The notes beneath the pieces were generated by a model. That model was not told where the DNA came from. It was given only the letters and a program-made list of their open reading frames with translations, and ran no database searches. From contig CAJFNC010000009.1 in the NCBI GenBank assembly GCA_904393835.1, positions 8,660 to 72,659 on the forward strand: DNA of 64,000 bases, read 5' to 3'. Positions 7,924-60,876 of this stretch are shown piece after piece (position 1 is the first letter of the stretch; every line of letters starts with the position of its first letter). The DNA comes from an uncultured Ruminococcus sp. (GTDB lineage Bacteria > Bacillota > Clostridia > Oscillospirales > Acutalibacteraceae). Position numbers and translations under genes: made by a program.

Positions 7924-8055
7924 TTTCAAAGCTTTGCCTTTATCAAAGCAAGCAGCGCATTGCGCTGCAATTTCAGTGGAGGATGCAGTCCCGCCGCTGA
8001 ATTTTGATACCTGACGCCGCCTATAAAGGCGGCGTCAGGTATGCTGTTTGTTATA
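7924..8055 (+). repeat. Dispersed multi-hairpin intergenic repeat, copy 1
   Basis: TTTCAAA...GCAGCGCATTGCGCTGC...CCGCCGCTGAATTTTGATA-[perfect 16-bp hairpin]-CTGTTTGTTATA; aligns by eye with 21822, 28778 and 49572. Confidence 0.85.
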
Positions 8056-8097
8056 TTATTATGCACTTCACCTTATAATAAATGCATATTTCAAAAG

Positions 8098-18610: not shown

Positions 18611-19873
18611 TTGAAAGAACTTATTGAGCACAAACTAAAGTCGGCGTTTGTGTATGTAAAAACATTTTTAAAATGGACTTTGATTGCAGCTGTACTGGGA
18701 CTTACAGGCGGCGCTATAGGCTCGCTGTTCAGCATATGTATTAAGTATGCTAATGAATATAATGAAAATTTATGGTATCTGACGCTGTTTATGCCGATTG
18801 GCGGCATTATCATTGTTGCGCTGTATAAGCTGTGTAAAATTGACAATGACCCCGGTACAAACTGCGTTATCGAGTCGATACGCAGCCAAAGTCATGTGCC
18901 GTATGCAATGGCGCCGCTGATTTTCGTGAGTACAATTATAACTCATCTTACGGGCGGTTCTGCAGGTCGTGAGGGCGCAGCTCTTCAGCTGGGCGGAAGC
19001 ATCGGTACTGCGCTGGGACGTATACTAAAGCTTGACGAAAGCGACCTGCATATTGCAATTATGTGCGGAATGAGCGCAGTTTTTTCGGCTTTGTTTTGCA
19101 CTCCTATTACAGCGGCATTTTTCGCACTTGAAGTAATAAGCGTAGGCGCGGCGTATTACGCGGCTCTTGTCCCCTGCTTTACGGCATCAATTGTTTCTTA
19201 CTTTACAGCGCTGAAACTTGGTGTTGAACCGCTCAGATTTATTATTGAAAACACCATACCTGCTTTTGACCTGCTTAATTTTGTGAGGATTATCGGGCTT
19301 TCGGCAGCCTGTGCGTTAATCAGTATTCTCTTCTGTGTAGTGATGAGAAAAACTCAAAAATACGCCAAAAAATTTCTTAAAAATGAATATCTGCGCGCGG
19401 CAGTCGGCGGTGCATTAATCATTTTACTGACATTTTCGGTCGGCTGCAAAGACTACAACGGCGCAGGCACTCACATAATTCAAACTGCGTTGAGCGGTCA
19501 TGCGAAACCGGAAGCGTTTCTTCTGAAAATTCTGTTTACCGCAATTACAATCGGCTGCGGATACAAGGGCGGTGAGATAGTTCCCACGCTGTTTATCGGT
19601 TCTGCATTCGGTTGCGTGATGGGCGGATTTTTGGGAATCAACCCAATATTCGGCGCGGCTATGGGTATGATTTGCCTGTTCTGCGGTGTAATCAACTGCC
19701 CGATTGCTTCAATTCTTTTAAGCGTAGAGGTTTTCGGCGCTCACGGTCTTATTTTCTTTGCCACGGGAGTTGCGGTAAGCTATATGCTCAGCGGTTACTA
19801 CGGACTTTACAGCAGTCAAAAAATTCTTTATTCAAAGCTAAAGGCAAAATTCATAAACATTAACGCTAAATAA
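18611..19873 (+). CDS. ClC/EriC-family chloride channel/antiporter
   Basis: GGSAGREGAALQ, GGEIVPTLF, multiple TM segments. Confidence 0.9.
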   Translation: MKELIEHKLKSAFVYVKTFLKWTLIAAVLGLTGGAIGSLFSICIKYANEYNENLWYLTLFMPIGGIIIVALYKLCKIDNDPGTNCVIESIRSQSHVPYAMAPLIFVSTIITHLTGGSAGREGAALQLGGSIGTALGRILKLDESDLHIAIMCGMSAVFSALFCTPITAAFFALEVISVGAAYYAALVPCFTASIVSYFTALKLGVEPLRFIIENTIPAFDLLNFVRIIGLSAACALISILFCVVMRKTQKYAKKFLKNEYLRAAVGGALIILLTFSVGCKDYNGAGTHIIQTALSGHAKPEAFLLKILFTAITIGCGYKGGEIVPTLFIGSAFGCVMGGFLGINPIFGAAMGMICLFCGVINCPIASILLSVEVFGAHGLIFFATGVAVSYMLSGYYGLYSSQKILYSKLKAKFININAK

Positions 19874-21766: not shown

Positions 21767-21821
21767 GTTTTAGAAATTTGTCAATATTTCGTAAATTTTG
21801 TGTTATTAATAAGATTCCATA

Positions 21822-21937
21822 TTTCAAAACAAGCAGCTCAATGCGCTGCAAATTTAGTGGAGGGATTGTATACCGACGCTGAATTTTGATAATAGACTCA
21901 GCCTTTAACGGCGGCGTCCATTATCCTGTTTGTTATA
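21822..21937 (+). repeat. Dispersed multi-hairpin intergenic repeat, copy 2
   Basis: TTTCAAAACAAGCAGCTCAATGCGCTGC...GCTGAATTTTGATAAT...CTGTTTGTTATA. Confidence 0.85.
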
Positions 21938-22061
21938 TTTTGTATGGAATGTATTTGGGATATGTTTTGATTTTAACATCACAACATAATAATTCCGCTT
22001 TTACTTTTATGAATATGAATTGAACCACCGCAATAGTCGCGCGGTTTTCGGGATATAAAAA

Positions 22062-28651: not shown

Positions 28652-28691
28652 TGTAAAGAACATAATATTACGAATGTAAAATCAATGTAAA
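28652..28691 (-). promoter_or_regulatory. Pho box upstream of pstS
   Basis: TGTAAA on the plus strand at 28675 and 28686 (11-bp period), with a third at 28652. Confidence 0.7.
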
Positions 28692-28737
28692 ATTAAATAT
28701 AGTTTTTGTATTGAATTCAATGTTATTACAAAACTGC

Positions 28738-28766
28738 GTGACAACATTAGTTTTTTATGTTATAAT
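28738..28766 (+). promoter_or_regulatory. SigA promoter with extended -10, pointing into repeat copy 3 and trpB2
   Basis: GTGACA, 17-bp spacer, TG-T-TATAAT. Confidence 0.65.
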
Positions 28767-28777
28767 ATCACAAACGC

Positions 28778-28889
28778 TTTCAAATCCGGCAGCGCATTGC
28801 GCTGAAAATTCAGCAGGGATTGTATCCCGCCGCTGAATTTTGATAATGTTCTCAGACTTTAGGACGGGGACATTGTCCTGTTTGTCATA
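28778..28889 (+). repeat. Dispersed multi-hairpin intergenic repeat, copy 3
   Basis: GCAGCGCATTGCGCTG-AAATTCAGC-GGGAT-TGT-ATCCC-GCTGAATTTTGATAATG...CTGTTTGTCATA. Confidence 0.85.
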
Positions 28890-29018
28890 TGTCATCTGTT
28901 TTTATTACTTCATTCGACATATTATTAGGTTAATAAATTGTTTGCTGTTTTAAAAACATATAACATATAATATATTTTGACTATTATGGAAAAATAAATT
29001 CCTACAGGAGGTAAAATT

Positions 29019-30398
29019 ATGGACAAAAATCAAATCCCCTACAAAATCTATCTGGACGAAAACGAAATTCCGAAACAGTGGTACAATGTGCGCGCAGATA
29101 TGAAAAACAAGCCTGCTCCGCTTCTTAACCCTGCAACACTCAAACCAATGACGGCTGACGAGCTTTCCGTCGTATTTTGTAAAGAGCTTGTGGAACAGGA
29201 GCTTGACGACACCGACGCCTACATTGACATTCCTCAGGAAATTCAGGACTTTTACAAAATGTACCGCCCGTCGCCGCTTATAAGAGCATATTTTCTTGAA
29301 AAGGAGCTTGATACTCCCGCTAAAATCTACTATAAATTTGAGGGAAACAACACCAGCGGCAGCCACAAATTAAACAGCGCGATTGCTCAGGCTTATTATG
29401 CAAAAAAGCAGGGACTCAAAGGCGTTACTACAGAAACAGGCGCAGGTCAGTGGGGTACAGCGCTTTCAATGGCTTGCGCTTTCTTTGGCCTTGACTGCCA
29501 TGTATATATGGTTAAGGTTTCGTATGAGCAAAAACCGTTCAGACGCGAGGTTATGAGAACCTATGGTGCGAGCGTTACACCTTCTCCGTCAACTACAACA
29601 TCTGTCGGCAGAAAAATTCTTGAAAAGCACCCCGGCACAACGGGAAGCCTCGGATGCGCAATTTCCGAAGCTGTTGAGGCAGCTACAACTAACGAGGGCT
29701 ACCGTTATGTCCTTGGCAGTGTACTCAATCAGGTACTGCTGCACCAATCAATTATAGGTCTTGAAGCTAAGACGGCTTTGGATAAATACGGCGTTAAACC
29801 AGATATTATCATCGGCTGCGCAGGCGGCGGCTCAAACCTCGGAGGTCTTATTTCTCCTTTTATGGGAGAAAAATTAAGGGGCGAGGCTGATTACCGCTTT
29901 ATTGCCGTAGAACCAGCGTCTTGCCCGAGCTTTACAAGAGGAAAATTCGCCTATGACTTCTGTGACACAGGTATGGTTTGTCCGCTTTCAAAGATGTACA
30001 CCCTCGGCAGTGGATTTATTCCCTCTGCCAACCACGCAGGCGGCTTGAGATACCACGGAATGAGCTCAACTCTTTCACAGCTCTATCACGACGGTCTTAT
30101 GGAAGCTGTTGCTGTTGAGCAGACTTCTGTATTTGCCGCTGCGGAACAGTTTGCAAAGGTCGAGGGTATCCTCCCCGCTCCCGAAAGCAGTCATGCTATC
30201 AGGGTCGCTATTGACGAAGCCCTCAAGTGCAAGGAAACAGGTGAGGAAAAAACAATCCTCTTCGGTCTTACAGGTACAGGCTATTTTGACATGGTCGCTT
30301 ATCAAAAGTTTAACGACGGCGAAATGAGCGACTATATTCCGAGCGACGAGGAATTGCAAAAAAGCTTTGACGAGCTGCCAAAGGTTGAAATCGACTGA
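29019..30398 (+). CDS. TrpB2 (TrpB-like PLP enzyme, tryptophan synthase beta type 2)
   Basis: YKFEGNNTSGSHKLN (PLP Lys), TETGAGQWG, GGLRYHGM, PAPESSHA; 459 aa, typical of TrpB2. Confidence 0.92.
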   Translation: MDKNQIPYKIYLDENEIPKQWYNVRADMKNKPAPLLNPATLKPMTADELSVVFCKELVEQELDDTDAYIDIPQEIQDFYKMYRPSPLIRAYFLEKELDTPAKIYYKFEGNNTSGSHKLNSAIAQAYYAKKQGLKGVTTETGAGQWGTALSMACAFFGLDCHVYMVKVSYEQKPFRREVMRTYGASVTPSPSTTTSVGRKILEKHPGTTGSLGCAISEAVEAATTNEGYRYVLGSVLNQVLLHQSIIGLEAKTALDKYGVKPDIIIGCAGGGSNLGGLISPFMGEKLRGEADYRFIAVEPASCPSFTRGKFAYDFCDTGMVCPLSKMYTLGSGFIPSANHAGGLRYHGMSSTLSQLYHDGLMEAVAVEQTSVFAAAEQFAKVEGILPAPESSHAIRVAIDEALKCKETGEEKTILFGLTGTGYFDMVAYQKFNDGEMSDYIPSDEELQKSFDELPKVEID

Positions 30399-41291: not shown

Positions 41292-42950
41292 TTATTCAAG
41301 TACAGCACCCTGAGCACCTGAGGTTACAAGCTTTGCGTAACGAGCAAGGTAACCCGTAGTTATTCTCGGTTTTCTCGGAGTCCATGTAGCTTTACGCTTT
41401 GCAAGCTCTTCGTCTGACACAAGAACATTAATTGTATTTGCAGGGATGTCAATTTCGATTGTATCGCCTTCTTCAACAAGGGCAATAGGGCCGCCTACTG
41501 CTGCTTCGGGTGAGACGTGACCGATTGCCGCGCCTCTTGTAGCGCCTGAAAAACGTCCGTCTGTGATAAGCGCTACGCAATTGCCGAGACCGCTGCCCAT
41601 AATAGCAGAAGTAGGATTGAGCATCTCTCTCATACCGGGGCCGCCCTTAGGTCCTTCGTAACGGATAACCACAACGTCGCCGGGATTGATTTTGCCGTCG
41701 TAGATTGCATTAAGTGCGTCCTCTTCACAGTCAAATACTCTGGCAAAGCCCTTGTGGTGCATCATTTCCTCTGCAACTGCACTTCTCTTAACTACGCAGC
41801 CATCGGGAGCAAGGTTACCCTTAAGCACTGCTATGCCGCCTGTCTTGCTGTACGGATTGGAAACCGGTCTGATGATTTCTGTATTTTTAATCTCGCAACC
41901 CTCAATGTTTTCACCGACAGTCTTGCCTGTACAGGTTTTAAGTGAAGTATTGATAAGGTTGAGTTTTGAAAGCTCGTGCATAACCGCATAAATACCGCCT
42001 GCCTCGTTAAGCTCCTCGATAAAGTGCTCGCCTGCGGGAGCAAGATGACAGAGGTTGGGAGTTTTGGCAGAAATGCCGTTGGCAATATCAAGGTCAAGAT
42101 CAATACCGCATTCGTGAGCGATTGCGGGCAAGTGAAGCATTGTATTTGTTGAGCAGCCGAGAGCCATATCAACTGTGAGAGCGTTTTTAAAAGCCTCTTC
42201 CGTCATAATATCTCTCGGACGAATATCATTTTTAACAAGCTCCATAATCTGCATACCTGCGTGCTTTGCAAGCTGCAAACGCTGTGAGTAAACAGCGGGA
42301 ATTGTACCGTTGCCTTTTAAACCCATTCCGATAACTTCCGTTAGGCAGTTCATACTGTTTGCAGTAAACATACCCGAACATGAACCGCAGGTAGGACAAG
42401 CGTTGTTTTCGTATTCGCCGAGCTTTTCGTCGTCGATTTCGCCCACCTTATAGCGTGAAACTGCCTCCGAAACAGTTGAGTAACTGATTTTTTTGCCGTC
42501 AACTCTGCCTGCAAGCATAGGACCGCCGCTGACAAAAATTGTCGGAATATTGATTCTTGCCGCAGCCATCAAAAGGCCTGGAACGTTTTTATCGCAGTTT
42601 GGAACCATTACAAGACCGTCAAAAGCATGAGCCTTTGCCATAGCCTCTGTTGAATCGGCGATAAGCTCACGAGTTACGAGTGAATATTTCATACCCTCGT
42701 GACCCATTGCAATACCGTCGCAAACAGCAATTGCAGGAAATACAATCGGTACGCCGCCAGCAAGAGCAACGCCCATTTTAACTGCCTCTACTACCTTGTC
42801 AATATTCATATGACCGGGCACGATATCATTTTTTGAGCTTACGATACCGATTTTCGGCTTTTTGATTTCTTCGTCTGTAAGTCCGAGAGCGTGCAAAAGT
42901 GTACGCTGCGGAGCGGCGTTGATGCCCTCCGAAATAACTGAACTTTTCAT
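41292..42950 (-). CDS. ilvD: Dihydroxy-acid dehydratase
   Basis: [46 protein letters not shown]. Confidence 0.97.
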
Positions 42951-45182: not shown

Positions 45183-46403
45183 TTAATATATCTTTTTTAC
45201 TTTTTGAAGAGTGTATATCGACTTGTTCATATTGAAAACATAAGCGATTGCGCAAACAATAAAAAAGTACGGCATATATTCAAATCCGAACACCTCGCCG
45301 CCGATAAAAATCGGGGCAAACAGAGTATTTGTGGCGCTTCCGAAAACTGCCGCATAGCCTAAGGCGGCAACAAACGCTGTCGGCATATTGAAAACGCACG
45401 CAAGCACAGCACCGAGACTTGCTCCGATTGCAAACAGCGGAGTTACCTCGCCGCCCTGAAAACCTGCCGCAAGCGTTATTACGGTGAGAGCGAATTTTAA
45501 AATCCAGTCATAAGTATAAATTGTTTCGCCGTTTAAACTGCTGTTGATAAGGTTGGTGCCAAGGCCCGAATATCTGCCCTGCCAAAGAAGTATAAAAAGT
45601 ATGCTCAAAGCAACGCCGATTACGGCAATTCTGATTATCGGGTTTTTGAGCTTTTCACCTGCAAGATTTTTGGCAAACTTTAAGCAAAGCGCAAATGCAC
45701 CGCCGACAATACCGAAAATTACACCTATTACAAGCAATTTAAAAAAAGTTTCCGCAGTAAGATTTATATTTAACCTGAGTGCAAATGTAAATTTTTCAAG
45801 ACCTGTAAAACGGGCAACGGTACTTGCCGTAAATGATGCGGCAAAGGTTGGCAAAAGCGCCTGATACCTCATCTCGCCCGCCGTGAGAACCTCCACGGCA
45901 AAAAGCACAGCCGCTATCGGTGTACCGAACAAGCCCGCAAAACCGGCTGCCATACCTGCTACAAGAAAAATCTGCCCCGCATTTTTTACGGGAATCCGTT
46001 TGCCGACAAAATGAGAAATCGTTGCTCCGATTTGAACGGCCACACCTTCTCTGCCCGCGCTGCCGCCGAAAAGGTGCGTAAGCCATGTACCCGACATAAC
46101 AAACGGAATAAGTCGCAGAGGAATCGCATTTTCGTCGCCGTTACCGACTTCAAATACCAGATTCATACCCTTTGAGCTTTTTCCGCCGAATTTTTGGTAA
46201 CAATAGACTATTACTATACCTGCCAACGGCAAAAAAGGTATGTAGTACAGCGGATTTACATCACGTATATCTGTAATTTTCAGCAGAATTTGCCCGAAAA
46301 ACGAATCTACTGCGCCTATCGCCGCTCCTACGGGAATAGCAACTGATGTCAACAGCAGTATTTCTCCTAAGTTTTGAAAAATATTTTTTACAGTCGTTTT
46401 CAT
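45183..46403 (-). CDS. CLC-F type fluoride/proton antiporter (EriC-F)
   Basis: GMNLV, GREGV and GGEVTP signatures; upstream fluoride riboswitch. Confidence 0.85.
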   Translation of the reverse strand: MKTTVKNIFQNLGEILLLTSVAIPVGAAIGAVDSFFGQILLKITDIRDVNPLYYIPFLPLAGIVIVYCYQKFGGKSSKGMNLVFEVGNGDENAIPLRLIPFVMSGTWLTHLFGGSAGREGVAVQIGATISHFVGKRIPVKNAGQIFLVAGMAAGFAGLFGTPIAAVLFAVEVLTAGEMRYQALLPTFAASFTASTVARFTGLEKFTFALRLNINLTAETFFKLLVIGVIFGIVGGAFALCLKFAKNLAGEKLKNPIIRIAVIGVALSILFILLWQGRYSGLGTNLINSSLNGETIYTYDWILKFALTVITLAAGFQGGEVTPLFAIGASLGAVLACVFNMPTAFVAALGYAAVFGSATNTLFAPIFIGGEVFGFEYMPYFFIVCAIAYVFNMNKSIYTLQKVKKIY

Positions 46404-46441
46404 AAACCTCACCCCGGCAATTAATTTTTGTTTCAGGCAAC

Positions 46442-46529
46442 AAAAAAGCTGATTACCCCTATGTTGCCATAGAAGTCATCAGCACATCGGCGGTTTAGGA
46501 CATGATCCAAGGGAGCACCTCATTCCCTG
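46442..46529 (-). ncRNA. Fluoride (crcB) riboswitch with terminator expression platform
   Basis: GGGAAUGAGGUGCUCCC...AAACCGC...GCUGAUGACUUCUA; the 3-prime part can pair with CAUAGGGGUAAUCAGC, followed by U6. Confidence 0.92.
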
Positions 46530-46645
46530 TATTTACTTTATATTACCACTGCTATTATTAATTTTCAAGTTAAATTTGAATATTTTCCGTATCTTACCGT
46601 ATCATTGCTTACAAAAGCCAGCTTAATTATTACAGTATTTCTCTG

Positions 46646-49265: not shown

Positions 49266-49403
49266 TCACTTTTTAAAGTTCTTCAATGCCTGCGGCTGCT
49301 TGGGCTGATACTGGAAAACAATGCATGCAGAGTTTGTGCTTTTTACGGCAGTTTTAACAGCCGCATCGGTAACAGCTTTTTTCAACATCTTTGTTGCTTT
49401 CAA
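49266..49403 (-). CDS. agrD: AgrD-type cyclic (thio)lactone autoinducing peptide precursor, 45 aa
   Basis: Hand translation from TTG after AAGAGGTG: MKATKMLKKAVTDAAVKTAVKSTNSACIVFQYQPKQPQALKNFKK; clostridial AgrD layout (leader, NSAC-xxxx-YQP, basic tail); adjacent to agrB/A/C. Confidence 0.9.
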   Translation of the reverse strand: MKATKMLKKAVTDAAVKTAVKSTNSACIVFQYQPKQPQALKNFKK

Positions 49404-49477
49404 TGTTTTCACCTCTTTTCTATTATATTTTATAGTTATATTTTATCACCTTATTATGTTAATTTCAATCACGTATT

Positions 49478-49507
49478 CCTGAAAACAACTATTTCCGCCC
49501 TGAATGT
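49478..49507 (-). promoter_or_regulatory. LytTR-type direct repeat upstream of agrD
   Basis: ACATTCAGG-12-GTTTTCAGG (21-bp period) on the minus strand. Confidence 0.7.
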
Positions 49508-49510
49508 CTC

Positions 49511-49550
49511 AGAACAAAAAAGAAACGCATAATTTTGTTCTGCGTTTTTT
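49511..49550 (-). terminator. Probable terminator between agrC and the agrD promoter
   Basis: AAACGCA...TGCGTTT stem followed by CTTTTTTGTT on the minus strand. Confidence 0.55.
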
Positions 49551-49571
49551 GTCATATTATATTGTTTTTTA

Positions 49572-49702
49572 TTCAAAGTTTCGGCTTTTATTAAGGCAAG
49601 CAAATCATTGCACCGCAAATTCAGCAGTAGGTTGTATCCTCCGCCGAATTTTGATAATGTCCCCCATCTTTATAGGCGAGGGACATTATCTTGTTTGTTA
49701 TA
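49572..49702 (+). repeat. Dispersed multi-hairpin intergenic repeat, copy 4 (overlaps the agrC stop codon)
   Basis: TTCAAAG...GCAAGCAA...AAATTCAGC...GAATTTTGATAATGTCCC...GGGACATTATCTTGTTTGTTATA. Confidence 0.8.
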
Positions 49703-50990
49703 TCGGAATTGTAATTTCAGTATAAAAATATTTGTCGTCGTATGATATATTATATACACAGCGATATTTTTCAACTGTTGATTTAATTATTGACAAACCC
49801 ATTCCGTCGTGTTCCGGTTTTGTGGAAAGTATTTTATTTCTGTGTTTATTTATTTTTCCGTCAAATGTATTTTTTACATTTATCAATATAAAATCGTTTG
49901 CTTTTTTAATTTTAAATTCTATTAACCTTTTTTCGGGTCCAAGTTTAAGGCAAGCCTCGATGGCGTTGTCCCACAGGTTTGAAAACAATGCGGTAATATC
50001 AATATCGCTCAAAAAACTGAAAGATAAATCCTCTACGTCTGTTATCACTTTTATCCCGTTGCGCTCGGCATATTCGATTTTTTGACTGAATATTACGCCT
50101 AAAATTTTATTTGAAGCCTGAAACCCCATATACAATGAATCGACCTCATGTTCTACCTTTTGTTTGTATTTTAAAGCCGCCTCACTGTCTTTTGTATTTA
50201 ATTCGTTTAATACATTAAGGTGTTTTTTCATATCGTGAATAATTTTACGTGTTTTTTCATATTGTAAAATCATTTCATTGTAGTTTGCAATCTGCATTTC
50301 ATTCTGCCTTTTCATTATATCAAGCTCATACTGCAATTTATAAGCGTTTGACAATTTTTCCAATATATATGAGGCATAAACGTTCAGCAAACAAAAAACA
50401 GCTATCATTATAACTAACACATATCCGTCACTTGTAGATGTTGCTTTTTTTACATAAACATACAAAATGAAAAATTCCGATATAAATAGTAATAATGTAA
50501 AAATTATCTCTTGTACTCTGATAGAAATTGTACCCTTTTTACTGAGAAAAACGGTAAACATTTTATAGATAAAAATTATTACAATAATATTTAGCAAACA
50601 GCTGATGATAAATATTAATACGTCGCTTATAATCTGCTCTAAATTTTTACCCGATATTACAAGCCATATAAATGTAGTAAAAATATCGCTGAACGCCAAA
50701 AAGGTAAGGTAAAGCATATTGTATAATATCGACTGCTTAAAACCGATGTCATACAAAATCAAGCATATTACATTGAAACCGATAACGGCATATAAAAAAT
50801 TAATCAAATACATATTTAATTGATTAATCAACACCATACATATGCACGAAAAAACAAAGACTGCTATGTACAATATTTTGTTGTCGTACCTTGGCTTATA
50901 AACCTTTCCGAAAAAAGAAAATGTCGCAACATTGATTACTATCGCCAAAAGTATTCTGATGCCAACTACTGCTATATGCAAATTTAACAT
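49698..50990 (-). CDS. agrC: AgrC-like GHKL sensor histidine kinase
   Basis: Multi-TM N-terminus, RKIIHDMKKHL, NLWDNAIEAC, STKPEHDGMGL. Confidence 0.88.
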   Translation of the reverse strand: MLNLHIAVVGIRILLAIVINVATFSFFGKVYKPRYDNKILYIAVFVFSCICMVLINQLNMYLINFLYAVIGFNVICLILYDIGFKQSILYNMLYLTFLAFSDIFTTFIWLVISGKNLEQIISDVLIFIISCLLNIIVIIFIYKMFTVFLSKKGTISIRVQEIIFTLLLFISEFFILYVYVKKATSTSDGYVLVIMIAVFCLLNVYASYILEKLSNAYKLQYELDIMKRQNEMQIANYNEMILQYEKTRKIIHDMKKHLNVLNELNTKDSEAALKYKQKVEHEVDSLYMGFQASNKILGVIFSQKIEYAERNGIKVITDVEDLSFSFLSDIDITALFSNLWDNAIEACLKLGPEKRLIEFKIKKANDFILINVKNTFDGKINKHRNKILSTKPEHDGMGLSIIKSTVEKYRCVYNISYDDKYFYTEITIPI

Positions 50991-50994
50991 CCCC

Positions 50995-51714
50995 TTAACT
51001 GCGAAGAATCTGCGAAAGTTTGTTTAAAAAGTCCTTTTGCTTTTTAGTTGCAAGAGGCAGCCACTCGCCGTTGTCCATTATAACTCCGTCATCCTTGCGG
51101 ATTGACTGCACGTGTCTGAGATTTACTATACAGGATCTGTTTGTCTGGTAAAATCCGTCATTTTGAATTTTGGAATATATGTCCGATAAATTTTCCTTTA
51201 CAACATATATCTTTTTTGAGGTATTAACCTGTACTCTCCTTTTTTCGAGCAAAATAAAATATATTACCTCGTCAAGCGGTTGAATTTCGACTCCGTTACC
51301 GGTAAAAAGCTCGACATTTTTCGCGTCATTCTTAAAATTAAAATACTTTATAACATCTTTTAGCGTCTGTGTAACAGCCTCAATCGACAACGGTTTTGTA
51401 ATAAAATCAAAAGCGTGAACCTTGTACGCTCTTCTGCTGTAATCAGCGTAACTGGTAATATAAACAATCGGTACATAATTATCGGTTTTGCGTATTTCCA
51501 TACCAACGGAAATACCGTTTGAATCCTGCATTTCGATATCCATAAAAATTAAATCAAAATGCTTTTCTTCTTTGAGCATCTGTGTGCCGTCGTAATATTT
51601 TTCAATATTAACCGCGATATTGTTTTTATCAAAAAAAGAAGATACAATTTTTTCAAGATTTCCAACGCATCTCACTTCATCATCACAAATTGCAATATTA
51701 AACACGTTTATCAT
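50995..51714 (-). CDS. agrA: AgrA-like LytTR response regulator
   Basis: IAICDD, LIFMDIEM, FDFITKP, LytTR domain (FYQTNRSCIVNL). Confidence 0.9.
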   Translation of the reverse strand: MINVFNIAICDDEVRCVGNLEKIVSSFFDKNNIAVNIEKYYDGTQMLKEEKHFDLIFMDIEMQDSNGISVGMEIRKTDNYVPIVYITSYADYSRRAYKVHAFDFITKPLSIEAVTQTLKDVIKYFNFKNDAKNVELFTGNGVEIQPLDEVIYFILLEKRRVQVNTSKKIYVVKENLSDIYSKIQNDGFYQTNRSCIVNLRHVQSIRKDDGVIMDNGEWLPLATKKQKDFLNKLSQILRS

Positions 51715-51791
51715 CTTCCCAACATAATAAAATTGTAAAAGTTAATTCAACAAAAATTATTATACACTAATGTTGCAAAAATTTCCACTAA

Positions 51792-52370
51792 TTATTTATT
51801 ATGTCGCGCGCTTTTTTTGTATCCTGCCGCAAGCAGTATCCCGGACATTGTTATTGCCAGCATTGCAGCAGAGGACAAAACATAAATTTTAAAATACAGC
51901 ATTATCAAAGCAAAAATGACTTCTGCAATTAAAATAACAATTGAACGAGTTTTGAACTTGACAATTTCGTCCTTTTCAAGCCTTTTATTTTCGCTGTCAA
52001 CGGGGGCAAGCAAAATTATCGCGATTCCGCTTAAAAATGCCGTGACCGCAAGCACAATCATTGTTGCAGTATTTACATACATAAGTACCAGCATTGCAAC
52101 TATCATTGTGAGCATTGACTGTATAAAGCACCGAATCCTGGTATCCGCATGATACCCTCCGGCGTTTGTACGCAGTATGGTAAAAAGCACAAGATAAACA
52201 ACGCACTCAAAAAACATTCCCATAAACGCACCTATTACCAGACAGACGCCAAAGAAAATTATTTTGAGCAACATTAATTCTATGCCGTATTTTACAACCG
52301 CAATTTTGTCGTCATCAAAATTCTCTCCATCGCAAACACGTACGGTAATCCAATTTACAAGTTTATCCAT
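51792..52370 (-). CDS. agrB: AgrB-family peptide-processing membrane protein
   Basis: KYGIE, LRTNAGGYHADTRIRC (catalytic His/Cys motif), APVDSENK; start moved to MDKLV after GAGGTG. Confidence 0.93.
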   Translation of the reverse strand: MDKLVNWITVRVCDGENFDDDKIAVVKYGIELMLLKIIFFGVCLVIGAFMGMFFECVVYLVLFTILRTNAGGYHADTRIRCFIQSMLTMIVAMLVLMYVNTATMIVLAVTAFLSGIAIILLAPVDSENKRLEKDEIVKFKTRSIVILIAEVIFALIMLYFKIYVLSSAAMLAITMSGILLAAGYKKSARHNK

Positions 52371-52386
52371 AATACACCTCAAATAA

Positions 52387-52428
52387 TAATATTGCAATAA
52401 TATTATACAACATATTATTGCAATATTA
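52387..52428. promoter_or_regulatory. Perfect 17-bp inverted repeat around the TATAAT upstream of agrB
   Basis: TAATATTGCAATAATAT-8-ATATTATTGCAATATTA. Confidence 0.55.
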
Positions 52429-52499: not shown

Positions 52500-53375
52500 T
52501 CACACCCCGTTCTCAAAAACGTACAAATACAAATCCTCAAGGGTTGGCTTAACGGATTCTGTTTTACAGCCTTTCGGCGGATTATCGGTTACGGTGCGCA
52601 CGATTATTTTATCGTCATTATGATATAGGTTTGAAACACGGTAATTATCCTGAAAATATTTCAGACTTTCTTTATCTGTTTCTATCTCAAACACCTTGTT
52701 TTCTATCTCTTTGATAAGATTGTCGCAGGTATCGTGCGACACCAGTTTTCCGCTTTTTAAAAGGATTATTTCCTTTGCAATAAATTCAATGTCCGACACA
52801 ACGTGGGTAGAAATTAAAACAATTTTATCCTCCGCAATTTCGCTTATGAAGTTGCGGATTCTTATTCGTTCTTTTGGGTCAAGACCTGCCGTAGGCTCGT
52901 CAAGAATCAAAACCTTTGGGTCATTAAGCAGCGCTTGTGCAATCAAGGCCCTTTGCTTCATACCGCCCGAGAAAGAACCGAGTTTTTTGTGCGCTGAATC
53001 AATAAGATTAACGGTTTCAAGAAGTGAAACAATTTTTTGCTTTGCCTCTTTCTTTTTTAATCCCTTTAACGCCGCCATATACCACAAAAAGCGGTTGAGT
53101 GTAAAATCGTCGTACAAGCCCTGCTGCTGAGGCATATATCCGAGCAAAGAGCGGTAGCTTTTGCCGAGCTTTTTTATATTATCGCCGTCATAAAGCACCT
53201 CTCCGCTGTCAGCGTTGAGATTATCGGTAATAATATTCATCAGCGTAGATTTGCCTGAGCCGTTCGGTCCCAGTAATCCATATACACCCGACGTAAGCGT
53301 TACCGAAAAATTATCAAGAGCTTTTACCGTTCCTTTTTTATATGTTTTACTGAGGTTTGCAATTTTAAGTTCCAT
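52500..53375 (-). CDS. ABC ATPase (DrrA/CcmA-like, ABC-2 exporter type)
   Basis: GPNGSGKST, FSGGMKQR, DEPTAGLDPKER, STHVVSD, PTLEDLY. Confidence 0.93.
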   Translation of the reverse strand: MELKIANLSKTYKKGTVKALDNFSVTLTSGVYGLLGPNGSGKSTLMNIITDNLNADSGEVLYDGDNIKKLGKSYRSLLGYMPQQQGLYDDFTLNRFLWYMAALKGLKKKEAKQKIVSLLETVNLIDSAHKKLGSFSGGMKQRALIAQALLNDPKVLILDEPTAGLDPKERIRIRNFISEIAEDKIVLISTHVVSDIEFIAKEIILLKSGKLVSHDTCDNLIKEIENKVFEIETDKESLKYFQDNYRVSNLYHNDDKIIVRTVTDNPPKGCKTESVKPTLEDLYLYVFENGV

Positions 53376-55755
53376 TTCTGCGCCTCCTTAGTGATTTTCC
53401 CGTAAAGTTCTTATAGGTAAATCCTGCGAAAATAACTGCTAAAATTGTTGATACGCCGATAAGCAATGCCATAACCCAAAGCTTGTTATTCATCAGCAGT
53501 GAAAAAATTCTCAAATCACGATTGAAATAAATAAGAACACAAGGAATAAGTGTTACAGCCGTAGAAACTATCATGGTAGTCACAGTGTTTTTTAACTTAT
53601 TCGACAAAAGCAGAATCACCCCGGCTGCCGCTAAACTTATGGTTATGTGTAATAAGCCCTCAAGCAATATTGCCTGCATAATAGTAATACTGCTCTCCAG
53701 CCGCTCAAAGCCCTCTAAAAATACAAGTGGTTCCGAAAATATATCCGTACCGAAAGTTTTTATAAAATTAATAATATACGGCAGATAAATAAGAACATAC
53801 ATAACAGAATATGTCAACAGGGCTACTGAAAATTTAGCGGCAACAAGCCTGCCCTTACCCTTTTGGGCAGCACAGATAAGTCTTTTCATATTACGCTTAT
53901 ATTCATAAGCAAAAATTCCCGACAGAGTGAAAACTATAAGCACCATAAACAGTGCAAACAAATTCCACTCTCTTGAAGCGTCCGCCATAAGGCGTTTGCC
54001 TACTGTGTAATTTATAAAGTAAGGCGTAATGTTCAGTTTTTCACCTACGGCCTTAATTGTATCGTACTGAAGCATTACGGTTTCAAAGCCCTTGCCCCTT
54101 GTGTCAAGTATATTATTTATTGCCGTTATCTGAGCGCTTTTTTGATCTTCGGTAAGCGTTGTATCGTAAGTAACGGCTTCTTTTTCGGCATTAAGCTCAT
54201 CAAAATATTTTTGCTCATCTTCAAGAAATTGCTCTTTTTCGGGGGTCAGCTCTCCCTCAAGCCTGTTAAGATATGCGGCGTAGGCAACATCAGCACCGAG
54301 TGAATAATTAATATTAATGTTTTCGGTAAAATTGGCAAAAGCAAATCCTGCAACCAAAACGAGAACAATCACAACTTTTGAGCTTACATAATGCTTGTAA
54401 CATTCACCTTTGAATACCGAAGTACTTCCCCTGAATGTATGTATCCTCAATCTAATTTTTTCGGAAAGATTTGCAAAAACATTCGCACCTGCAAACTGTC
54501 CCTGCTTAGAAAACGCAATCAAACACAACGGCGGAATTATAAGTGCGCACAGCACTAAAAACAACAGATATATCCACACCACATTGACAGGGTGCGTGAA
54601 AAAATTCAAATTCAGATATTTTCCAAATAACTCATTACCGCTGAGAAAATAAAACACATTAATATATTTGAAATGATTGACAGGCGACATTGAGTCTATA
54701 AAATTATACATACAAAATTCTGCGCCGAAAAATGCAACAAGAACAATATATGTTATATTAGTGCTTTTTATCAATGTAAAGACTAAAGCTAAAATCAAAG
54801 CCACAGCACAAAGTGTAAATGCTTTTTTCAGCACCCACAAAACCAGATATTGTAAAACAGTGCATTTTAATGTGCAGTTCATAAACTCAGGTATGGACTG
54901 AATACTGCGGTTAAGGTCGCCCAAACCGAAAGCAACTCCGCCTGTCAGCAAATTCGATATATAAAAAACTAATGTAACTCCCGCAACTGTCAGGAGCGTA
55001 ACAACAAGTTTTGCCGCCATTGTATGATGTCTGCCTTTTTGGGTAGATTTTACCAGCGCTGTAAGCCCTTTTTCTCTTTCCAAAGAAAACAAAGCAATAC
55101 ATACAAGCAACACAAGTATTAACAGCAGATAATCTGTTAATACAAAGGTTGTTGACAGATTAATTCCCAAGTCAAAGCCCGGCGTAATTTCTACACCCTT
55201 GAGATGCTCAAAATCCAGGGGCGTTTTTTCTATATTATTGTAAGCAAAAGTTCCCGGTTTAGAGAATATTGAAAACTGCAGCTGTGAGTCTGTACGAGAC
55301 TGCATATCATTTATAAACGTATTATACTCGTCAATGTAAGAGAATTTTTCATAAAGCAAATCCGTAACATACACATCGCCCGAGGAAAAGCCTTCTTCAA
55401 TTAGTTGCTGAGCACGCTCGTATGCTTTGGGGTTCTCAGATTTATACTGTTCAATAAGGGCGGTAACATATGTTGGATCAATATTTTCACTTGACGCAGA
55501 CTGAATATTTGAGGCTATTGAATATGCCTCTTTTAGTTCGGAAAGTTCAGCCGCAGCGTCATCCCTATCCATATCAAGATAATATGAAAGTTTGTTTTCC
55601 AGTTCATCGCTGAGGCTCAGCTCATATTTATATGTTTCATCAGACGTTGTAAAAAAGTAAAATCCTGCCGCATTTATTACAAAAAACAACGCAAAGCAAA
55701 TTATAAAAAGCCTGTTAGAAAATAGCTTTACGAACTCGGAACACACCAGTCTCAA
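53365..55755 (-). CDS. Large (796 aa) ABC-2-type permease with two extracellular loops, paralog 2
   Basis: Multi-TM; EREKG...KSTQKGR and EYKRNM...KGKGRL motifs; immediately before the ATPase; paralog of 58454-60868. Confidence 0.8.
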   Translation of the reverse strand: MRLVCSEFVKLFSNRLFIICFALFFVINAAGFYFFTTSDETYKYELSLSDELENKLSYYLDMDRDDAAAELSELKEAYSIASNIQSASSENIDPTYVTALIEQYKSENPKAYERAQQLIEEGFSSGDVYVTDLLYEKFSYIDEYNTFINDMQSRTDSQLQFSIFSKPGTFAYNNIEKTPLDFEHLKGVEITPGFDLGINLSTTFVLTDYLLLILVLLVCIALFSLEREKGLTALVKSTQKGRHHTMAAKLVVTLLTVAGVTLVFYISNLLTGGVAFGLGDLNRSIQSIPEFMNCTLKCTVLQYLVLWVLKKAFTLCAVALILALVFTLIKSTNITYIVLVAFFGAEFCMYNFIDSMSPVNHFKYINVFYFLSGNELFGKYLNLNFFTHPVNVVWIYLLFLVLCALIIPPLCLIAFSKQGQFAGANVFANLSEKIRLRIHTFRGSTSVFKGECYKHYVSSKVVIVLVLVAGFAFANFTENININYSLGADVAYAAYLNRLEGELTPEKEQFLEDEQKYFDELNAEKEAVTYDTTLTEDQKSAQITAINNILDTRGKGFETVMLQYDTIKAVGEKLNITPYFINYTVGKRLMADASREWNLFALFMVLIVFTLSGIFAYEYKRNMKRLICAAQKGKGRLVAAKFSVALLTYSVMYVLIYLPYIINFIKTFGTDIFSEPLVFLEGFERLESSITIMQAILLEGLLHITISLAAAGVILLLSNKLKNTVTTMIVSTAVTLIPCVLIYFNRDLRIFSLLMNNKLWVMALLIGVSTILAVIFAGFTYKNFTGKSLRRRRNGT

Positions 55756-55810
55756 AGAATCACCCCCGATTATAAAACCGAATTATTTATACTGTTATTG
55801 GCCTTTAATA

Positions 55811-57481
55811 TCAAGAAAAGCTAAAAAACTCTCCTGAAAATTGTGCGCCGTCTATCGGCTCTATCGGTTCACCGTCAAGGATAGAGACAAGCATAGAATG
55901 TACCTCCTCCGGTACAGATTCCACACCTAAAAGAACTAAAAATTTTCCTGAACGCAAAGCGTAAGGATACTCAGACATAAACTCCTTTGCCTTATCCTCG
56001 GATTCAAATTCCATAAACGGAAAATATGAGGTCACCGTTCCGCCGTCCTGCTCCCAACTGAGCTTTACTGAAAAACCTGCCTCTGCGTCGGCGCCCTCCG
56101 ACTGGAACGAATCCTTAACGCCGTAATCCTTATCCTTTGCCTTTTGCCACATATTAACCAGCTCTTCGCTGCCGCTCGGCGGTGTCTCGCTGATTGCACC
56201 TGTTTTATTGGAGTTTGACGACTTTGTCTGTGATTCAGGATTCAGACAAAAGGTTTTTTCCCATAATTTTCCGTTCAGGCTTCCAAGCTCGCTTTTATCG
56301 TAATAGAATATAAAGTTTCCGTTATCGTTCTTACCTCCGAACAAAAATACTTCATCGTCAATAGGAAGCAAAAACCATGTTTTAGCTGAACCGTCGCCCA
56401 AAGAAAATTCATCTACCTTATTCAGCTTTGAATCATACACGGTAATATATCTCTCTTTTCTGTTCACGGGCTCGTCATTTGTGGCCATCCGCTGGATATT
56501 TAATGCAATGTAGTTATCCACATACATATATTTTCCGTCACAAATAATATTTTCATGCTCGTAAGTCTCAAAAAATTTTTCGGGATTGTTTCCTTCAAAA
56601 TCGGTTTTGTAATATATATACTTGCCGTTTTCTTCATCGCCTGATGAAAATATCAACATTCCGTCTAAATACATAGGAGTGAACAAATAGTTACCCGTAC
56701 CTGCAGGAGAAAGCATTTCGGTAACAGAATAATCGCTGAGATTCATTTTGAGCCTTTTGCTGATATTTACGGTTTTATTATCGCGCTTCATACCGTTAAT
56801 GGCAAAGTACAAATTATCTCCGTAAGCCATAAGCTCTGATATTTGTGCGTCCCGCTGCACCTCTTCTGCAAAATAAATTTCCTTTGGCTCTGACGACGAT
56901 TTATCAAGGGAATAGCTGTAAATATAGCAGTCAATATCATTTATATTTTCCATTCCCGTGTTTTCGTCGATTGAATATTTTCTCACCGTATAATAAAAAA
57001 CGCCTCTGTGAATTATCCATTCATCGGGAGCCAAGTCCATATGAAAAACAGTTTCCTTTTGACTGCCGTCGGCGGACATTCTTATCAGATTGGAGCCCTC
57101 AAAATTGTACTCATCATCTGCGCTCTCAACAAAGTAAATGCTGCCGTCGTAATAGCTGATGTTATCGACCACACCAATATTTGAATTGCAGCTGTCGTCA
57201 TTATGCATACAGTTGGGCTTATTGCACAGTGGCGTAGCCTGCATTGTTTCACCTTCAACATAGTAGATATTTTTATTTGCTAATACATAGTACCCGGTTT
57301 CACATTTTGCAATATTTGCCTGCGACATAGGCAAATAGTCGGAATTTACCAGCTGACAATCCTTGGTATAATCATAATCTCCCTTGTTTTGAATATCCTC
57401 ATTTGAACAACCGCCGAATATTGATAAAACGCTGAAAGCCGCAAGTATTAAAGCCAATGTTTTTTTTATTATATGTTTCAT
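55811..57481 (-). CDS. Lipoprotein, predicted beta-propeller with PLCxKxxCxH..C motif and extra C-terminal domain
   Basis: Lipobox FGGC, PLCNKPNCMHNDDSC, aromatic strand repeats, Ser-rich linker. Confidence 0.75.
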   Translation of the reverse strand: MKHIIKKTLALILAAFSVLSIFGGCSNEDIQNKGDYDYTKDCQLVNSDYLPMSQANIAKCETGYYVLANKNIYYVEGETMQATPLCNKPNCMHNDDSCNSNIGVVDNISYYDGSIYFVESADDEYNFEGSNLIRMSADGSQKETVFHMDLAPDEWIIHRGVFYYTVRKYSIDENTGMENINDIDCYIYSYSLDKSSSEPKEIYFAEEVQRDAQISELMAYGDNLYFAINGMKRDNKTVNISKRLKMNLSDYSVTEMLSPAGTGNYLFTPMYLDGMLIFSSGDEENGKYIYYKTDFEGNNPEKFFETYEHENIICDGKYMYVDNYIALNIQRMATNDEPVNRKERYITVYDSKLNKVDEFSLGDGSAKTWFLLPIDDEVFLFGGKNDNGNFIFYYDKSELGSLNGKLWEKTFCLNPESQTKSSNSNKTGAISETPPSGSEELVNMWQKAKDKDYGVKDSFQSEGADAEAGFSVKLSWEQDGGTVTSYFPFMEFESEDKAKEFMSEYPYALRSGKFLVLLGVESVPEEVHSMLVSILDGEPIEPIDGAQFSGEFFSFS

Positions 57482-57499
57482 ATCTATCACCTGAGCAGG

Positions 57500-57523
57500 G
57501 GGGCAATAGAAATCTATTGCCCC
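57500..57523. other. Intergenic stem-loop without U tract
   Basis: GGGGCAATAG-AAAT-CTATTGCCCC, 10 nt after the secreted-protein stop. Confidence 0.6.
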
Positions 57524-57532
57524 AGAAAAAAA

Positions 57533-57976: not shown

Positions 57977-58453
57977 AAATAAAACTCCCTCCTTGAAATT
58001 ATTATAATACAATTTTTAAAATCAAAATTTATACTGTCTCATCTGTCCCATCGGAATCTTCTCCTCTCCTTAATATCCTGCATTTTTTAATTGACTTAAT
58101 ATTTTCAGTGCTTGCAGTTGCCTGCAATATACTGTTAAAACTAATCATCATTAAAAGTGCTTTAACCACACTTAAATTCAGTTTTATAATGTAAAATATC
58201 TGTGTAACTAACGAAATATAGTATAAGATATTTATGCGTGTATTTTTAAATTATATATGTATTAGTTACAGCAAAAATAATAGTTTTATAAAATCAAGTT
58301 AAAATATTTTGTGTATATTTTTATAGTTATATATTAGCACGCGTGTTCTGTTTTGTCAATATATATGTGATAGTTTTTATAATATTATTTTTTAAAATTA
58401 TATTTTGCAATATTTGCTTTGTAATTGAGAAAATAACGGCGACAAATTAGGAA

Positions 58454-60868: not shown

Positions 60869-60876
60869 AATAGTTC

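What the first reader, a model, noticed from the sequence alone, without database searches (positions are those of the whole stretch)
7924..8055. Unannotated ~110-130 bp structured repeat family: four co-oriented copies with compensatory mutations
Copies lie at 7924-8055, 21822-21937, 28778-28889 and 49572-49702. All are intergenic and on the plus strand regardless of flanking gene direction. Shared layout: TTCAAA, hairpin GCAGCGCA-T-TGCGCTGC, stem AAATTCAGC...GGGAT-TGT-ATCCC...GCTGAATTT, a third hairpin, then CTGTTTGTTATA. The third hairpin changes sequence but keeps pairing (copy 1 ATACCTGACGCCGCCT/AGGCGGCGTCAGGTAT, copy 4 ATAATGTCCC/GGGACATTAT, copy 3 with G-U pairs). The ends can close a stem, (A/G)CAAGCAG with CTGTTTGT, which becomes CAAGCAA/TTGTTTG in copy 4. 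Wobble pairs mostly work on the plus strand, pointing to selection on single-stranded RNA or DNA structure. Candidates are a REP/PATE-like non-autonomous element mobilised by an HUH (IS200/RAYT-type) transposase encoded elsewhere, or a multicopy structured ncRNA. I do not recognise it as a named family.
Basis: partly seen in the sequence, partly recalled or inferred. Interest (0 to 1): 0.75.

Follow-up and report, generated by a model that had tools for sequence, protein, structure and literature searches.

The report
Species-specific structured intergenic DNA repeat family
The four look-alike 115-135 bp hairpin-rich stretches are real members of a roughly 20-copy intergenic repeat family found only in one chicken-gut Ruminococcus species; it most likely spread as a small non-autonomous mobile element that is now dormant, so it is an ordinary kind of thing in a new place, not a new RNA gene.

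Summary
There are exactly four copies, all on the + strand (nhmmer E 1e-32 to 1e-35; covariance model 109-135 bits), 67-79% identical to each other, and no Rfam family matches. The host is a chicken-gut relative of Ruminococcus bromii. Metagenome contig depth points to about 20-25 copies per genome, and assemblies break inside the element. The element is missing from the same intergenic sites in three related species; those gaps are about 100-160 nt shorter. It is present and almost unchanged in every strain of its own species, so it inserted in the past and is now fixed and dormant.

Wobble pairs show no strand preference in the local hairpins (9 G·T against 10 A·C). Compensatory changes occur only in the third hairpin.

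No copy has a shared promoter. Copy 3 lies in a 5' UTR in sense orientation. Copies 1 and 4 lie in 3' UTRs in antisense orientation. Copy 4 supplies a gene's stop codon.

Best reading: a new family of the MITE/REP/SPRITE/bcr1 class of structured selfish repeats, with an unknown mobilising enzyme and terminator-like hairpins as a likely side effect. A link to a HUH transposase is neither supported nor excluded. A multicopy sRNA is unlikely.

The parts
7924..8056 (+). Copy 1, long form. Parts: TTTCAAAG 7924-7931; extra 5' hairpin 7931-7949; hairpin 1 7952-7968; hairpin 2 7969-8004; junction TGATA; hairpin 3 8007-8042 (16 perfect pairs); tail GCTGTTTGTTATAT 8043-8056. It lies between the trmD stop (8098) and the ptsH (HPr) promoter.
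   Evidence: Present in 10 strains. Absent from the trmD-ptsH gap in two related species.
21822..21938 (+). Copy 2, short form, with somewhat decayed stems. It lies between the phoR terminator and the promoter of the Na/Pi-cotransporter gene.
   Evidence: Present in a relative about 95% identical. Absent from the same gap in R. bromii.
28778..28890 (+). Copy 3, short form. It lies in the divergent pstS / PLP-enzyme promoter region, immediately downstream of the + strand promoter, so it is transcribed in the sense orientation as 5' UTR.
   Evidence: Absent in R. bromii, which keeps the same promoter.
49572..49703 (+). Copy 4, long form, with decayed hairpin 1 and decayed extra 5' hairpin. Its right end supplies the TAA stop (49698-49700, minus strand) of the AgrC-like kinase gene 49698-50990.
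   Evidence: Nearly invariant in 8 strains.
28738..28766 (+). Host promoter GTGACA-17-TGtTATAAT of the PLP-dependent enzyme gene (29019-30398). It is not part of the element. It matters because copy 3 was inserted just downstream of it.
   Evidence: The same GTGACA-17-TACAAT arrangement is present in R. bromii without the element (read from the sequence).

Best explanation
This is a lineage-restricted family of short, non-coding, hairpin-rich intergenic repeats. It belongs to the same general class as MITEs, REP-like elements, pneumococcal RUP/SPRITE and Bacillus bcr1. It spread through the genome of one chicken-gut Ruminococcus species by transposition in trans, using an enzyme encoded elsewhere or since lost, and it is now fixed and immobile.

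Shown:
- It is multicopy.
- It is absent from orthologous sites in relatives.
- It is fixed within the species.
- It has no promoter of its own and no coding capacity.
- Copies lie in different transcriptional contexts.

Inferred:
- Mobilisation was by a transposase, into AT-rich (often TA/TAT) intergenic sites.
- The palindromes persist because hairpins tend to correct themselves (template switching between arms), because copies that disrupt genes are removed, or both.
- When transcribed, hairpin 3 plus the U-rich tail (+ sense), or hairpin 1 plus TTGCTTTG (- sense), can act as intrinsic terminators or 3'-end stabilisers. This would be a side effect that may be useful at some loci, such as downstream of trmD.
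For: - Repeat family: four copies at E 1e-32 to 1e-35 and 109-135 bits.
- Copy number: in run X1, where single-copy depth is 42x, 17-24 separate contigs of depth 37-46 each carry a copy. Summed core depth is 800-1040, which gives about 20-25 copies.
- Assembly behaviour: Logan assemblies break 28 nt into the element.
- Boundaries: contigs with different flanks start their match at 7924/7925 and end at ..GTTATA|T.
- Absent in relatives: R. bromii has the same gene order, but its gaps are 282 and 249 nt against 384 and 408 nt, with no nhmmer or CM hit. Two species with TrmD 87-88% identical have trmD-ptsH gaps of 252 and 249 nt against 380 nt, also with no hit.
- Wider searches: exact-pattern scans of 185,579 species genomes, JGI metagenomes and IMG/VR gave only chance hits.
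- Fixed in the species: copy 1 is in 10 strains, copy 4 in 8 strains, and copies 2 and 3 in a relative about 95% identical. No contig skips an element.
- Not more conserved than its surroundings: in the strain alignment of the copy 1 gap I count about 7 variable events in 132 nt of element against 4 in about 248 nt of flank.
- Palindrome dynamics: one strain has a hairpin 3 loop inversion, TTTATA to TATAAA.
- No shared upstream sequence or promoter.
- Mixed contexts: 5' UTR in sense (copy 3), 3' UTR in antisense (copies 1 and 4), between a terminator and a promoter (copy 2), and overlapping a stop codon (copy 4).
- Published analogues with the same properties, including past bursts followed by dormancy, are reviewed in PMC3184786.
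Against: - No mobilising enzyme was identified. There is no transposase in the window or in about 105 kb of contigs from this species.
- There is no consistent target-site duplication. TA flanks three of four copies; nothing longer is shared.
- The 'terminal inverted repeat' is only 9 bp, imperfect and subterminal.
- No empty site could be defined to the nucleotide, because the relatives' intergenic DNA is too diverged.
- The GAATTTTGATA junction is invariant and the CTGTTTGTYATAT tail has 92% mean pairwise identity, in copies that are otherwise 65-79% identical. This shows some sequence-specific constraint that a purely decaying relic would not keep.
- Hairpin 3 keeps its pairing through multi-base changes, which could equally reflect selection on structure.
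Confidence: 0.55

Rival explanations
1. The element is specifically a single-strand DNA transposon relic: a PATE of the IS200/IS605 family, or a REP-like element mobilised by a Y1 HUH transposase. It would insert 3' of a short target on the lagging-strand template and leave no target duplication.
For: - No consistent target-site duplication.
- All four copies are co-oriented in a region whose GC skew (about -0.1 on the + strand) and gene direction indicate a single replication direction.
- If the minus strand is the active strand, it lies on the lagging-strand template as expected, and every copy is preceded by ATAT.
- The structure is rich in hairpins on either strand.
Against: - The hairpins near the two ends are unrelated. 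Hairpin 3 is hypervariable between copies, whereas TnpA or RAYT enzymes recognise conserved, similar hairpins.
- The architecture is unlike REP or REPIN: it has 3-4 different hairpins rather than one 20-40 nt palindrome or an inverted pair.
- No Y1 or TnpB gene occurs in about 105 kb of contigs from the species.
- Four of four co-oriented has only p = 0.125.
- The ATAT may simply be part of the element.
Confidence: 0.15
2. The copies are maintained by selection as transcription terminators or insulators (a SPRITE-like role). Hairpin 3 plus the U-tail would stop + strand transcription, and hairpin 1 (with the extra 5' hairpin) plus a T-rich tail would stop - strand transcription. The copies would thus separate neighbouring operons.
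For: - Terminator-like sites are called at hairpin 3 (+) in copies 1 and 3, and at hairpin 1 (-) in copies 1 and 2. This is 4 sites against 0.3 expected in the copy 1 region.
- Hairpin 3 varies in sequence but keeps its pairing, as terminators do.
- Copy 1, which appears to be the only terminator after trmD, has perfect stems. Copies 2 and 4, which sit next to canonical host terminators, have decayed stems.
Against: - The relatives manage without the element at the same sites.
- An insulator need not be co-oriented.
- At three of four loci the better terminator (hairpin 3) faces against the flanking genes.
- Copy 3 would terminate inside the 5' UTR of a biosynthetic gene.
- The stem-quality correlation rests on four copies.
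- There is no direct transcript-end evidence: the RNA-labelled runs are low depth and uninformative.
Confidence: 0.2
3. The copies are a family of paralogous small regulatory RNA genes of about 115-135 nt, transcribed from the + strand. The conserved single-stranded AAUUUUGAUAAU and CUGUUUGUUAUAU would act as seed or protein-binding regions, and hairpin 3 would be the terminator.
For: - The pattern of conserved linear motifs between variable, compensated stems fits an sRNA.
- Hairpin 3 plus the U-rich tail is terminator-like.
- Copy 3 has a strong promoter directly upstream.
Against: - There is no conserved upstream sequence, and no + strand promoter was called at copies 1 and 2.
- The copy 3 promoter is the host gene's own promoter and is conserved in R. 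bromii without the element.
- There is no strand asymmetry in wobble pairs or in fold energy.
- Hairpins 1 and 2 show no compensatory change.
- The element is not more conserved than its flanks within the species.
- Many copies share only the right-hand 80 nt.
- No Rfam family matches.
Confidence: 0.08

Closest known systems
[quoted passage not shown]
   Same: Both occur in Firmicutes and are about 105-130 bp, non-coding, intergenic and multicopy, with a predicted terminator-like hairpin. Both families expanded in an ancestor and are now dormant (review PMC3184786).
   Different: I could not test sequence relationship. RUP has clear terminal inverted repeats and target duplications, which this family lacks. 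This family has 3-4 distinct hairpins and is confined to one Ruminococcus species.
bcr1 repeat of the Bacillus cereus group (about 155 bp)
   Same: A lineage-specific, non-autonomous repeat with independent stem-loops (a cruciform-like fold). Stems are kept by compensatory changes in some copies and decayed in others. It is transcribed with neighbouring genes, and the mobilising enzyme is unknown (PMC3184786).
   Different: bcr1 is flanked by 5-bp direct repeats and its positions differ between closely related strains. Here no direct repeat is seen, and all copies examined are fixed across strains.
REP/BIME/REPIN elements with RAYT transposases, and IS200/IS605-derived PATEs
   Same: Hairpin-forming extragenic repeats with no target duplication and a possible strand bias.
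   Different: REPs are single 20-40 nt palindromes with a conserved tetranucleotide, often arranged in inverted pairs. PATEs have similar conserved hairpins at both ends. Here the hairpins differ from each other and one is hypervariable. No Y1 gene was seen nearby.
ERIC/Correia-type MITEs of Proteobacteria
   Same: Elements of about 100-160 bp inserted in transcribed intergenic regions. They fold in RNA, can provide terminators, promoters or stop codons, and affect neighbouring mRNAs.
   Different: Those elements are long near-perfect inverted repeats with TA duplications. This family's end complementarity is only 9 bp.

Membership tests
Any Rfam 15 RNA family | Covariance-model score at or above the family's gathering threshold | tested here: not met
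   The only gathering-level hit in the window is the fluoride riboswitch. For copies 1-3 at E<=5-10, only sub-threshold chance hits appear, at most 20 bits against thresholds of 40-440.
MITE (DDE-transposase dependent) | Terminal inverted repeats at the very ends | tested here: inconclusive
   Only a 9-bp imperfect, subterminal complement is present (AGCAAGCAG / CTGTTTGTT, two mismatches read as G·T). It is lost in copy 3.
MITE (DDE-transposase dependent) | Target-site duplication flanking each copy | tested here: not met
   No direct repeat longer than 2-3 bp is shared. TA/TAT flanks copies 1, 2 and 4 but not copy 3. Extra left flanks from other copies show TA in about 6 of 10.
MITE (DDE-transposase dependent) | Small, non-coding, multicopy, with insertion polymorphism between genomes | tested here: met
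   Size 113-133 bp. No open frame is shared between copies. About 20-25 copies. Absent from orthologous sites in three related species.
MITE (DDE-transposase dependent) | A parent IS with the same ends in the genome | not testable with these tools
   The source genome is not in the searchable collections. Only about 105 kb of it could be read, and that holds no transposase.
REP/REPIN with RAYT | A 20-40 nt imperfect palindrome with a conserved 5' tetranucleotide, often in inverted pairs, and a RAYT gene flanked by REPs | tested here: not met
   The architecture is 3-4 different hairpins over 115-135 nt, with single, co-oriented copies. No Y1_Tnp hit among the proteins annotated in the window and flanks. 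Genome-wide absence could not be tested.
IS200/IS605-derived PATE | Similar, conserved subterminal hairpins at both ends, recognised by TnpA | tested here: not met
   Hairpin 1 (GCAGCGC..) and hairpin 3 are unrelated. The junction-plus-hairpin-3 segment has only 65% mean pairwise identity between copies.
IS200/IS605-derived PATE | No target duplication, a conserved short target on one side, and orientation tied to the replication direction | tested here: inconclusive
   No duplication is seen. ATAT is constant at one end, but it may belong to the element. Four of four copies are co-oriented in a region with uniform GC skew, which has p = 0.125.
Paralogous sRNA gene family | Own conserved promoter and a discrete transcript | tested here: not met
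   Homology begins at TTTCAAA with unrelated upstream DNA. No + strand promoter is called at copies 1 and 2. The copy 3 promoter belongs to the host gene. Transcript evidence is inconclusive.
SPRITE / bcr1 (named Firmicute repeat families) | Sequence similarity to the family consensus | not tested
   No reference sequences for these families were available in the tools. The resemblance is one of kind only.

The most novel reading that the evidence does not exclude
The family may be a replication-strand-oriented element moved as single-stranded DNA by an as yet unlinked enzyme. In that case the invariant GAATTTTGATA and CTGTTTGTTATAT motifs would be the protein recognition and cleavage sites, and the variable hairpin 3 would be recognised by shape alone. 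That would be a new type of hairpin-dependent mobile element in Clostridia, later co-opted as a two-way terminator.
Probability: 0.12. Interest if true: 0.55.

Novelty: new member of a known kind. Interest (0 to 1): 0.3.

Why it matters
The practical value is modest.
- The repeat breaks short-read assemblies of this gut species.
- It marks one lineage and could serve as a strain or species marker.
- It changes the untranslated regions of housekeeping and phosphate-regulon genes, and it provides one gene's stop codon.
- Two co-oriented copies bracket the whole pst-pho operon. In principle this could allow deletion or amplification by recombination.

It adds an example from the Ruminococcaceae to the list of structured selfish repeats. 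It also illustrates that 'compensatory' changes in a DNA palindrome are not by themselves evidence for a functional RNA.

Tried and rejected
1. Rfam search at gathering threshold and at permissive E-values on three copies: nothing.
2. Exact-pattern scans of GTDB species genomes, JGI metagenomes and IMG/VR using the two most conserved motifs: 38 loci, all chance hits by nhmmer. Two further viral scans found nothing.
3. blastn against plasmid and phage collections: no match.
4. Fishing for spurious ORFs translated from other copies in the 5.8-billion-protein database, to reach more copies: no hit.
5. Walking 4.5-10 kb beyond both window ends: no further copy.
6. Looking for empty-site alleles within the species, using ten strains, eight strains and four divergent metagenomes: none.
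7. RNA-labelled chicken-gut runs: depth 2-6x and flat, with multicopy cross-mapping, so transcription could not be judged.
8. A weak nhmmer hit at 42523-42590 lies inside ilvD and is chance.
9. Candidate internal promoters were considered and dropped as inconsistent between copies. These were TTATCA-16-TACAAT on the minus strand (good only in copies 2 and 3) and a sigma-H-like or CodY-like reading of the GAATTTTGATA region (by eye).
10. Literature search for Ruminococcus repeats or sRNAs: nothing relevant.

Full report
**1. What is there**

Reading the four stretches and aligning them confirms a shared unit with these parts:
- TTTCAAA at the left end.
- Hairpin 1, GCAGCGC-ATT-GCGCTGC.
- Hairpin 2, AAATTCAGC(G/A)G .. 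GGAT-TGT-ATCC .. C(C/G)GCTGAATTT.
- The invariant junction GAATTTTGATA.
- Hairpin 3, 15-16 bp and variable in sequence.
- The tail C(C/T)TGTTTGT(T/C)ATAT.

Copies 1 and 4 are a long form with an extra 17-18 nt at the 5' end, which in copy 1 makes a fourth hairpin (GCTTTG-CCTTTAT-CAAAGC). A profile HMM built from the four copies finds them at E 2.6e-35 to 7.5e-32 and nothing else in the 64 kb. A covariance model scores them 109-135 bits and also finds no fifth copy. A weak hit at 42523-42590 lies inside ilvD and is chance. Copies are 67-79% identical to each other. The tail has 92% mean pairwise identity and the junction is invariant in all four copies, whereas hairpin 3 with its junction has 65% mean pairwise identity.

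**2. Whose genome**

The window has 40.7% G+C and holds ordinary Clostridia housekeeping genes:
- mraZ-rsmH, coaD, uvrC, ptsH, trmD-rimM, mutS2, recO, era and ffh.
- The pstSCAB-phoU-phoBR operon and a shikimate operon.
- fusA, ilvD, sufBD and an agr-like locus.

There is no transposase. Sequencing runs that hold the region are chicken-gut metagenomes. PstS is 81% identical to Ruminococcus bromii PstS, and 97-99% identical variants come from unnamed MAGs and assemblies. The host is therefore an uncultured chicken-gut relative of R. bromii.

**3. Is it a known RNA or element?**

No Rfam family reaches threshold. The only gathering-level hit in the window is a fluoride riboswitch at 46463-46536. 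Permissive searches on copies 1-3 give only chance-level hits. Nothing similar is in the plasmid or phage collections. An exact pattern made of the two most conserved motifs, which matches all four window copies, was scanned against 185,579 species genomes, JGI metagenomes and IMG/VR. It returned 38 loci, and the profile does not recognise any of them. Two further viral scans were empty. The family therefore looks confined to this species, and the species' own genome is not in those collections.

**4. Copy number and boundaries**

- Logan assemblies of several samples end 28 nt into copy 1, which is typical of a repeat.
- In metagenome run X1 this genome sits at 42x depth. There, 17-24 separate contigs, each at 37-46x, carry a match. 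Summed depth over the core reaches 800-1040, so there are about 20-25 copies.
- Only about 5-9 of these match the left part (hairpin 1). Many copies therefore share only the right-hand 80 nt or so.
- No further copy lies within 4.5-10 kb of either window end.

**5. Insertion history**

- R. bromii has the same gene order (PLP enzyme | pstSCAB-phoU-phoBR | Na/Pi transporter). Its two intergenic gaps are 282 and 249 nt against 384 and 408 nt here, and the profile and the model find nothing in 21 kb.
- Two other relatives (TrmD 88% and 87% identical) have trmD-ptsH gaps of 252 and 249 nt against 380 nt here. The difference equals the length of the element, and again there is no hit.
- Within the species the copies are fixed. 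Copy 1 is in all 10 strains sampled. Copy 4 is in all 8. Copies 2 and 3 are in a relative about 95% identical, and no contig in four divergent metagenomes skips an element.

The family therefore spread after this lineage split from its known relatives and has not moved since. The relatives' intergenic DNA is too diverged to define empty sites to the nucleotide.

**6. Structure and strand**

All copies fold well, but they do so equally on both strands. Z-scores run from -3.5 to -7.6 on the + strand and -2.3 to -8.9 on the - strand. Consensus fold energies are -33.2 and -29.3 kcal/mol.

On my hand-drawn structure, 84.7% of cells pair, against 33-42% when the partners are slid. Six pairs changed on both sides, and all six are in hairpin 3. 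Hairpins 1 and 2 show only decay or one-sided change. Most of the hairpin 3 double changes come from copy 1, where a block of adjacent pairs differs (ATACCTGACG.. against ATAATGTCCC..). These may reflect few events.

In hairpins 1-3 there are 9 G·T pairs (tolerated on +) and 10 A·C pairs (tolerated on -). The 9-bp closing stem AGCAAGCAG/CTGTTTGTT does carry G·T pairs, but they sit at the same invariant positions in every copy. It competes with hairpin 1 and could equally be read as a poor terminal inverted repeat.

One strain has the hairpin 3 loop of copy 1 inverted (TTTATA to TATAAA). This is the signature of template switching within a DNA palindrome, a process that also copies changes from one arm to the other without any selection on RNA.

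In the strain alignment of the copy 1 gap I count about 7 variable events in 132 nt of element against 4 in 248 nt of flanking intergenic DNA. Copy 4 has 1 variable site in about 130 nt against 2 in its flanks. The element is not under tighter constraint than its surroundings.

**7. Context**

- Upstream sequences are unrelated, and no + strand promoter is called at copies 1 and 2.
- The strong promoter before copy 3 (GTGACA-17-TGtTATAAT) is the host PLP-enzyme gene's promoter. R. bromii has GTGACA-17-TACAAT at the same place without the element. Copy 3 was therefore inserted at the start of that gene's 5' UTR and is transcribed in the + sense.
- Copy 1 lies in the 3' UTR of the minus-strand rimM-trmD operon.
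- Copy 4 begins inside the stop codon of the minus-strand AgrC-like kinase gene. Copies 1 and 4 are therefore transcribed, if at all, in the - sense.
- Copy 2 sits between the phoR terminator and the next promoter.
- Terminator-like sites are called at hairpin 3 on + (copies 1 and 3) and at hairpin 1 on - (copies 1 and 2).
- RNA-labelled runs are too shallow, and too confused by cross-mapping, to show transcripts.

**8. Orientation**

All four copies are on the + strand. That strand has a GC skew of about -0.1 and carries few genes, so it is the lagging-strand sequence. With four copies, three of them in the same gene context, p is 1/8, and replication and transcription cannot be separated as causes.

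Consider an IS200/IS605-type element. If + were the active strand, this orientation is the disfavoured one. If - were the active strand, the orientation fits and ATAT precedes every copy, but the 'left-end' hairpin would then be the hypervariable one, which does not fit recognition by TnpA. (The IS200/IS605 expectations come from established knowledge of that family, not from a tool result.)

**9. Conclusion**

The best-supported reading is a new, species-restricted family of the well-known class of short structured selfish repeats: MITE, REP-like, RUP/SPRITE and bcr1 (review PMC3184786). It expanded once and is now dormant. Its mobiliser is unknown, and its terminator-like hairpins may matter locally.

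It fails the membership tests for classic MITEs (no target duplication, poor inverted repeats), for REP/RAYT and for PATEs (the end hairpins are unlike each other and one is variable). It is a member of the kind, not of any named family. The sRNA reading is unlikely.

The conserved junction and tail motifs remain unexplained and are the best lead to the protein that once recognised the element.

Noticed in passing
window 46463-46536 (-), 45183-46412 (-), 18611-19873 (+): A fluoride riboswitch (39.2 bits, above the gathering score) sits directly upstream of a CLC-type channel gene, probably a CLC-F fluoride exporter. A second CLC paralogue lies at 18611-19873 without a riboswitch hit.
   Followed up: partly
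L055:9690-9700, equal to window 8022-8027: In one strain (NCBI MAG GCA_949286935.1) the loop of hairpin 3 in copy 1 is inverted (TTTATA to TATAAA) while the stem is unchanged. This is a template-switch signature in a DNA palindrome.
   Followed up: partly
window 21822-21938 and 28778-28890: Copies 2 and 3 are direct repeats 6.9 kb apart that bracket the entire pstSCAB-phoU-phoBR operon. Recombination between them could delete or amplify the phosphate regulon. No such joint was seen in four metagenomes.
   Followed up: partly
window 49266-52397 (-): An agr-like quorum-sensing locus: AgrB (51792-52397), a LytTR response regulator (50995-51705) and a GHKL kinase (49698-50990). Beyond copy 4 and a two-way terminator (about 49505-49545) lies a 48-aa ORF (49266-49412) that could be a separated AgrD-like peptide gene.
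   Followed up: no
window 53365-63930 (-); L059:8764-18913: A run of six large genes (414, 310, 397, 804, 564 and 796 aa) with no Pfam hit on record, next to an ABC ATPase. The region has low G+C (about 36-37%). One strain has an extra 147-aa gene inside the run.
   Followed up: no
L059:1-2000 and L060:2230-4223 (just right of the window): Three tandem Tn916-Xis-like genes and a split tyrosine integrase lie beside a tRNA-binding-domain gene, probably an integrative element remnant. A GntR-ABC module is present in one strain and absent in another.
   Followed up: no
window 28690-28760; L056:9810-9900: The pstS / PLP-enzyme divergent region keeps the blocks TTGTCACGCA(G/A)(T/A)TTTGTAA and ATACAAAA(A/C)CTATATTT in both this species and R. 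bromii. These are candidate shared promoter and Pho-box elements.
   Followed up: no
window 21811-21821 and 21943-21950: Copy 2 is flanked by a perfect 8-bp inverted repeat of host sequence (ATTCCATA .. TATGGAAT), as if it had been inserted into the loop of an existing small hairpin. R. bromii has only a partial counterpart.
   Followed up: partly
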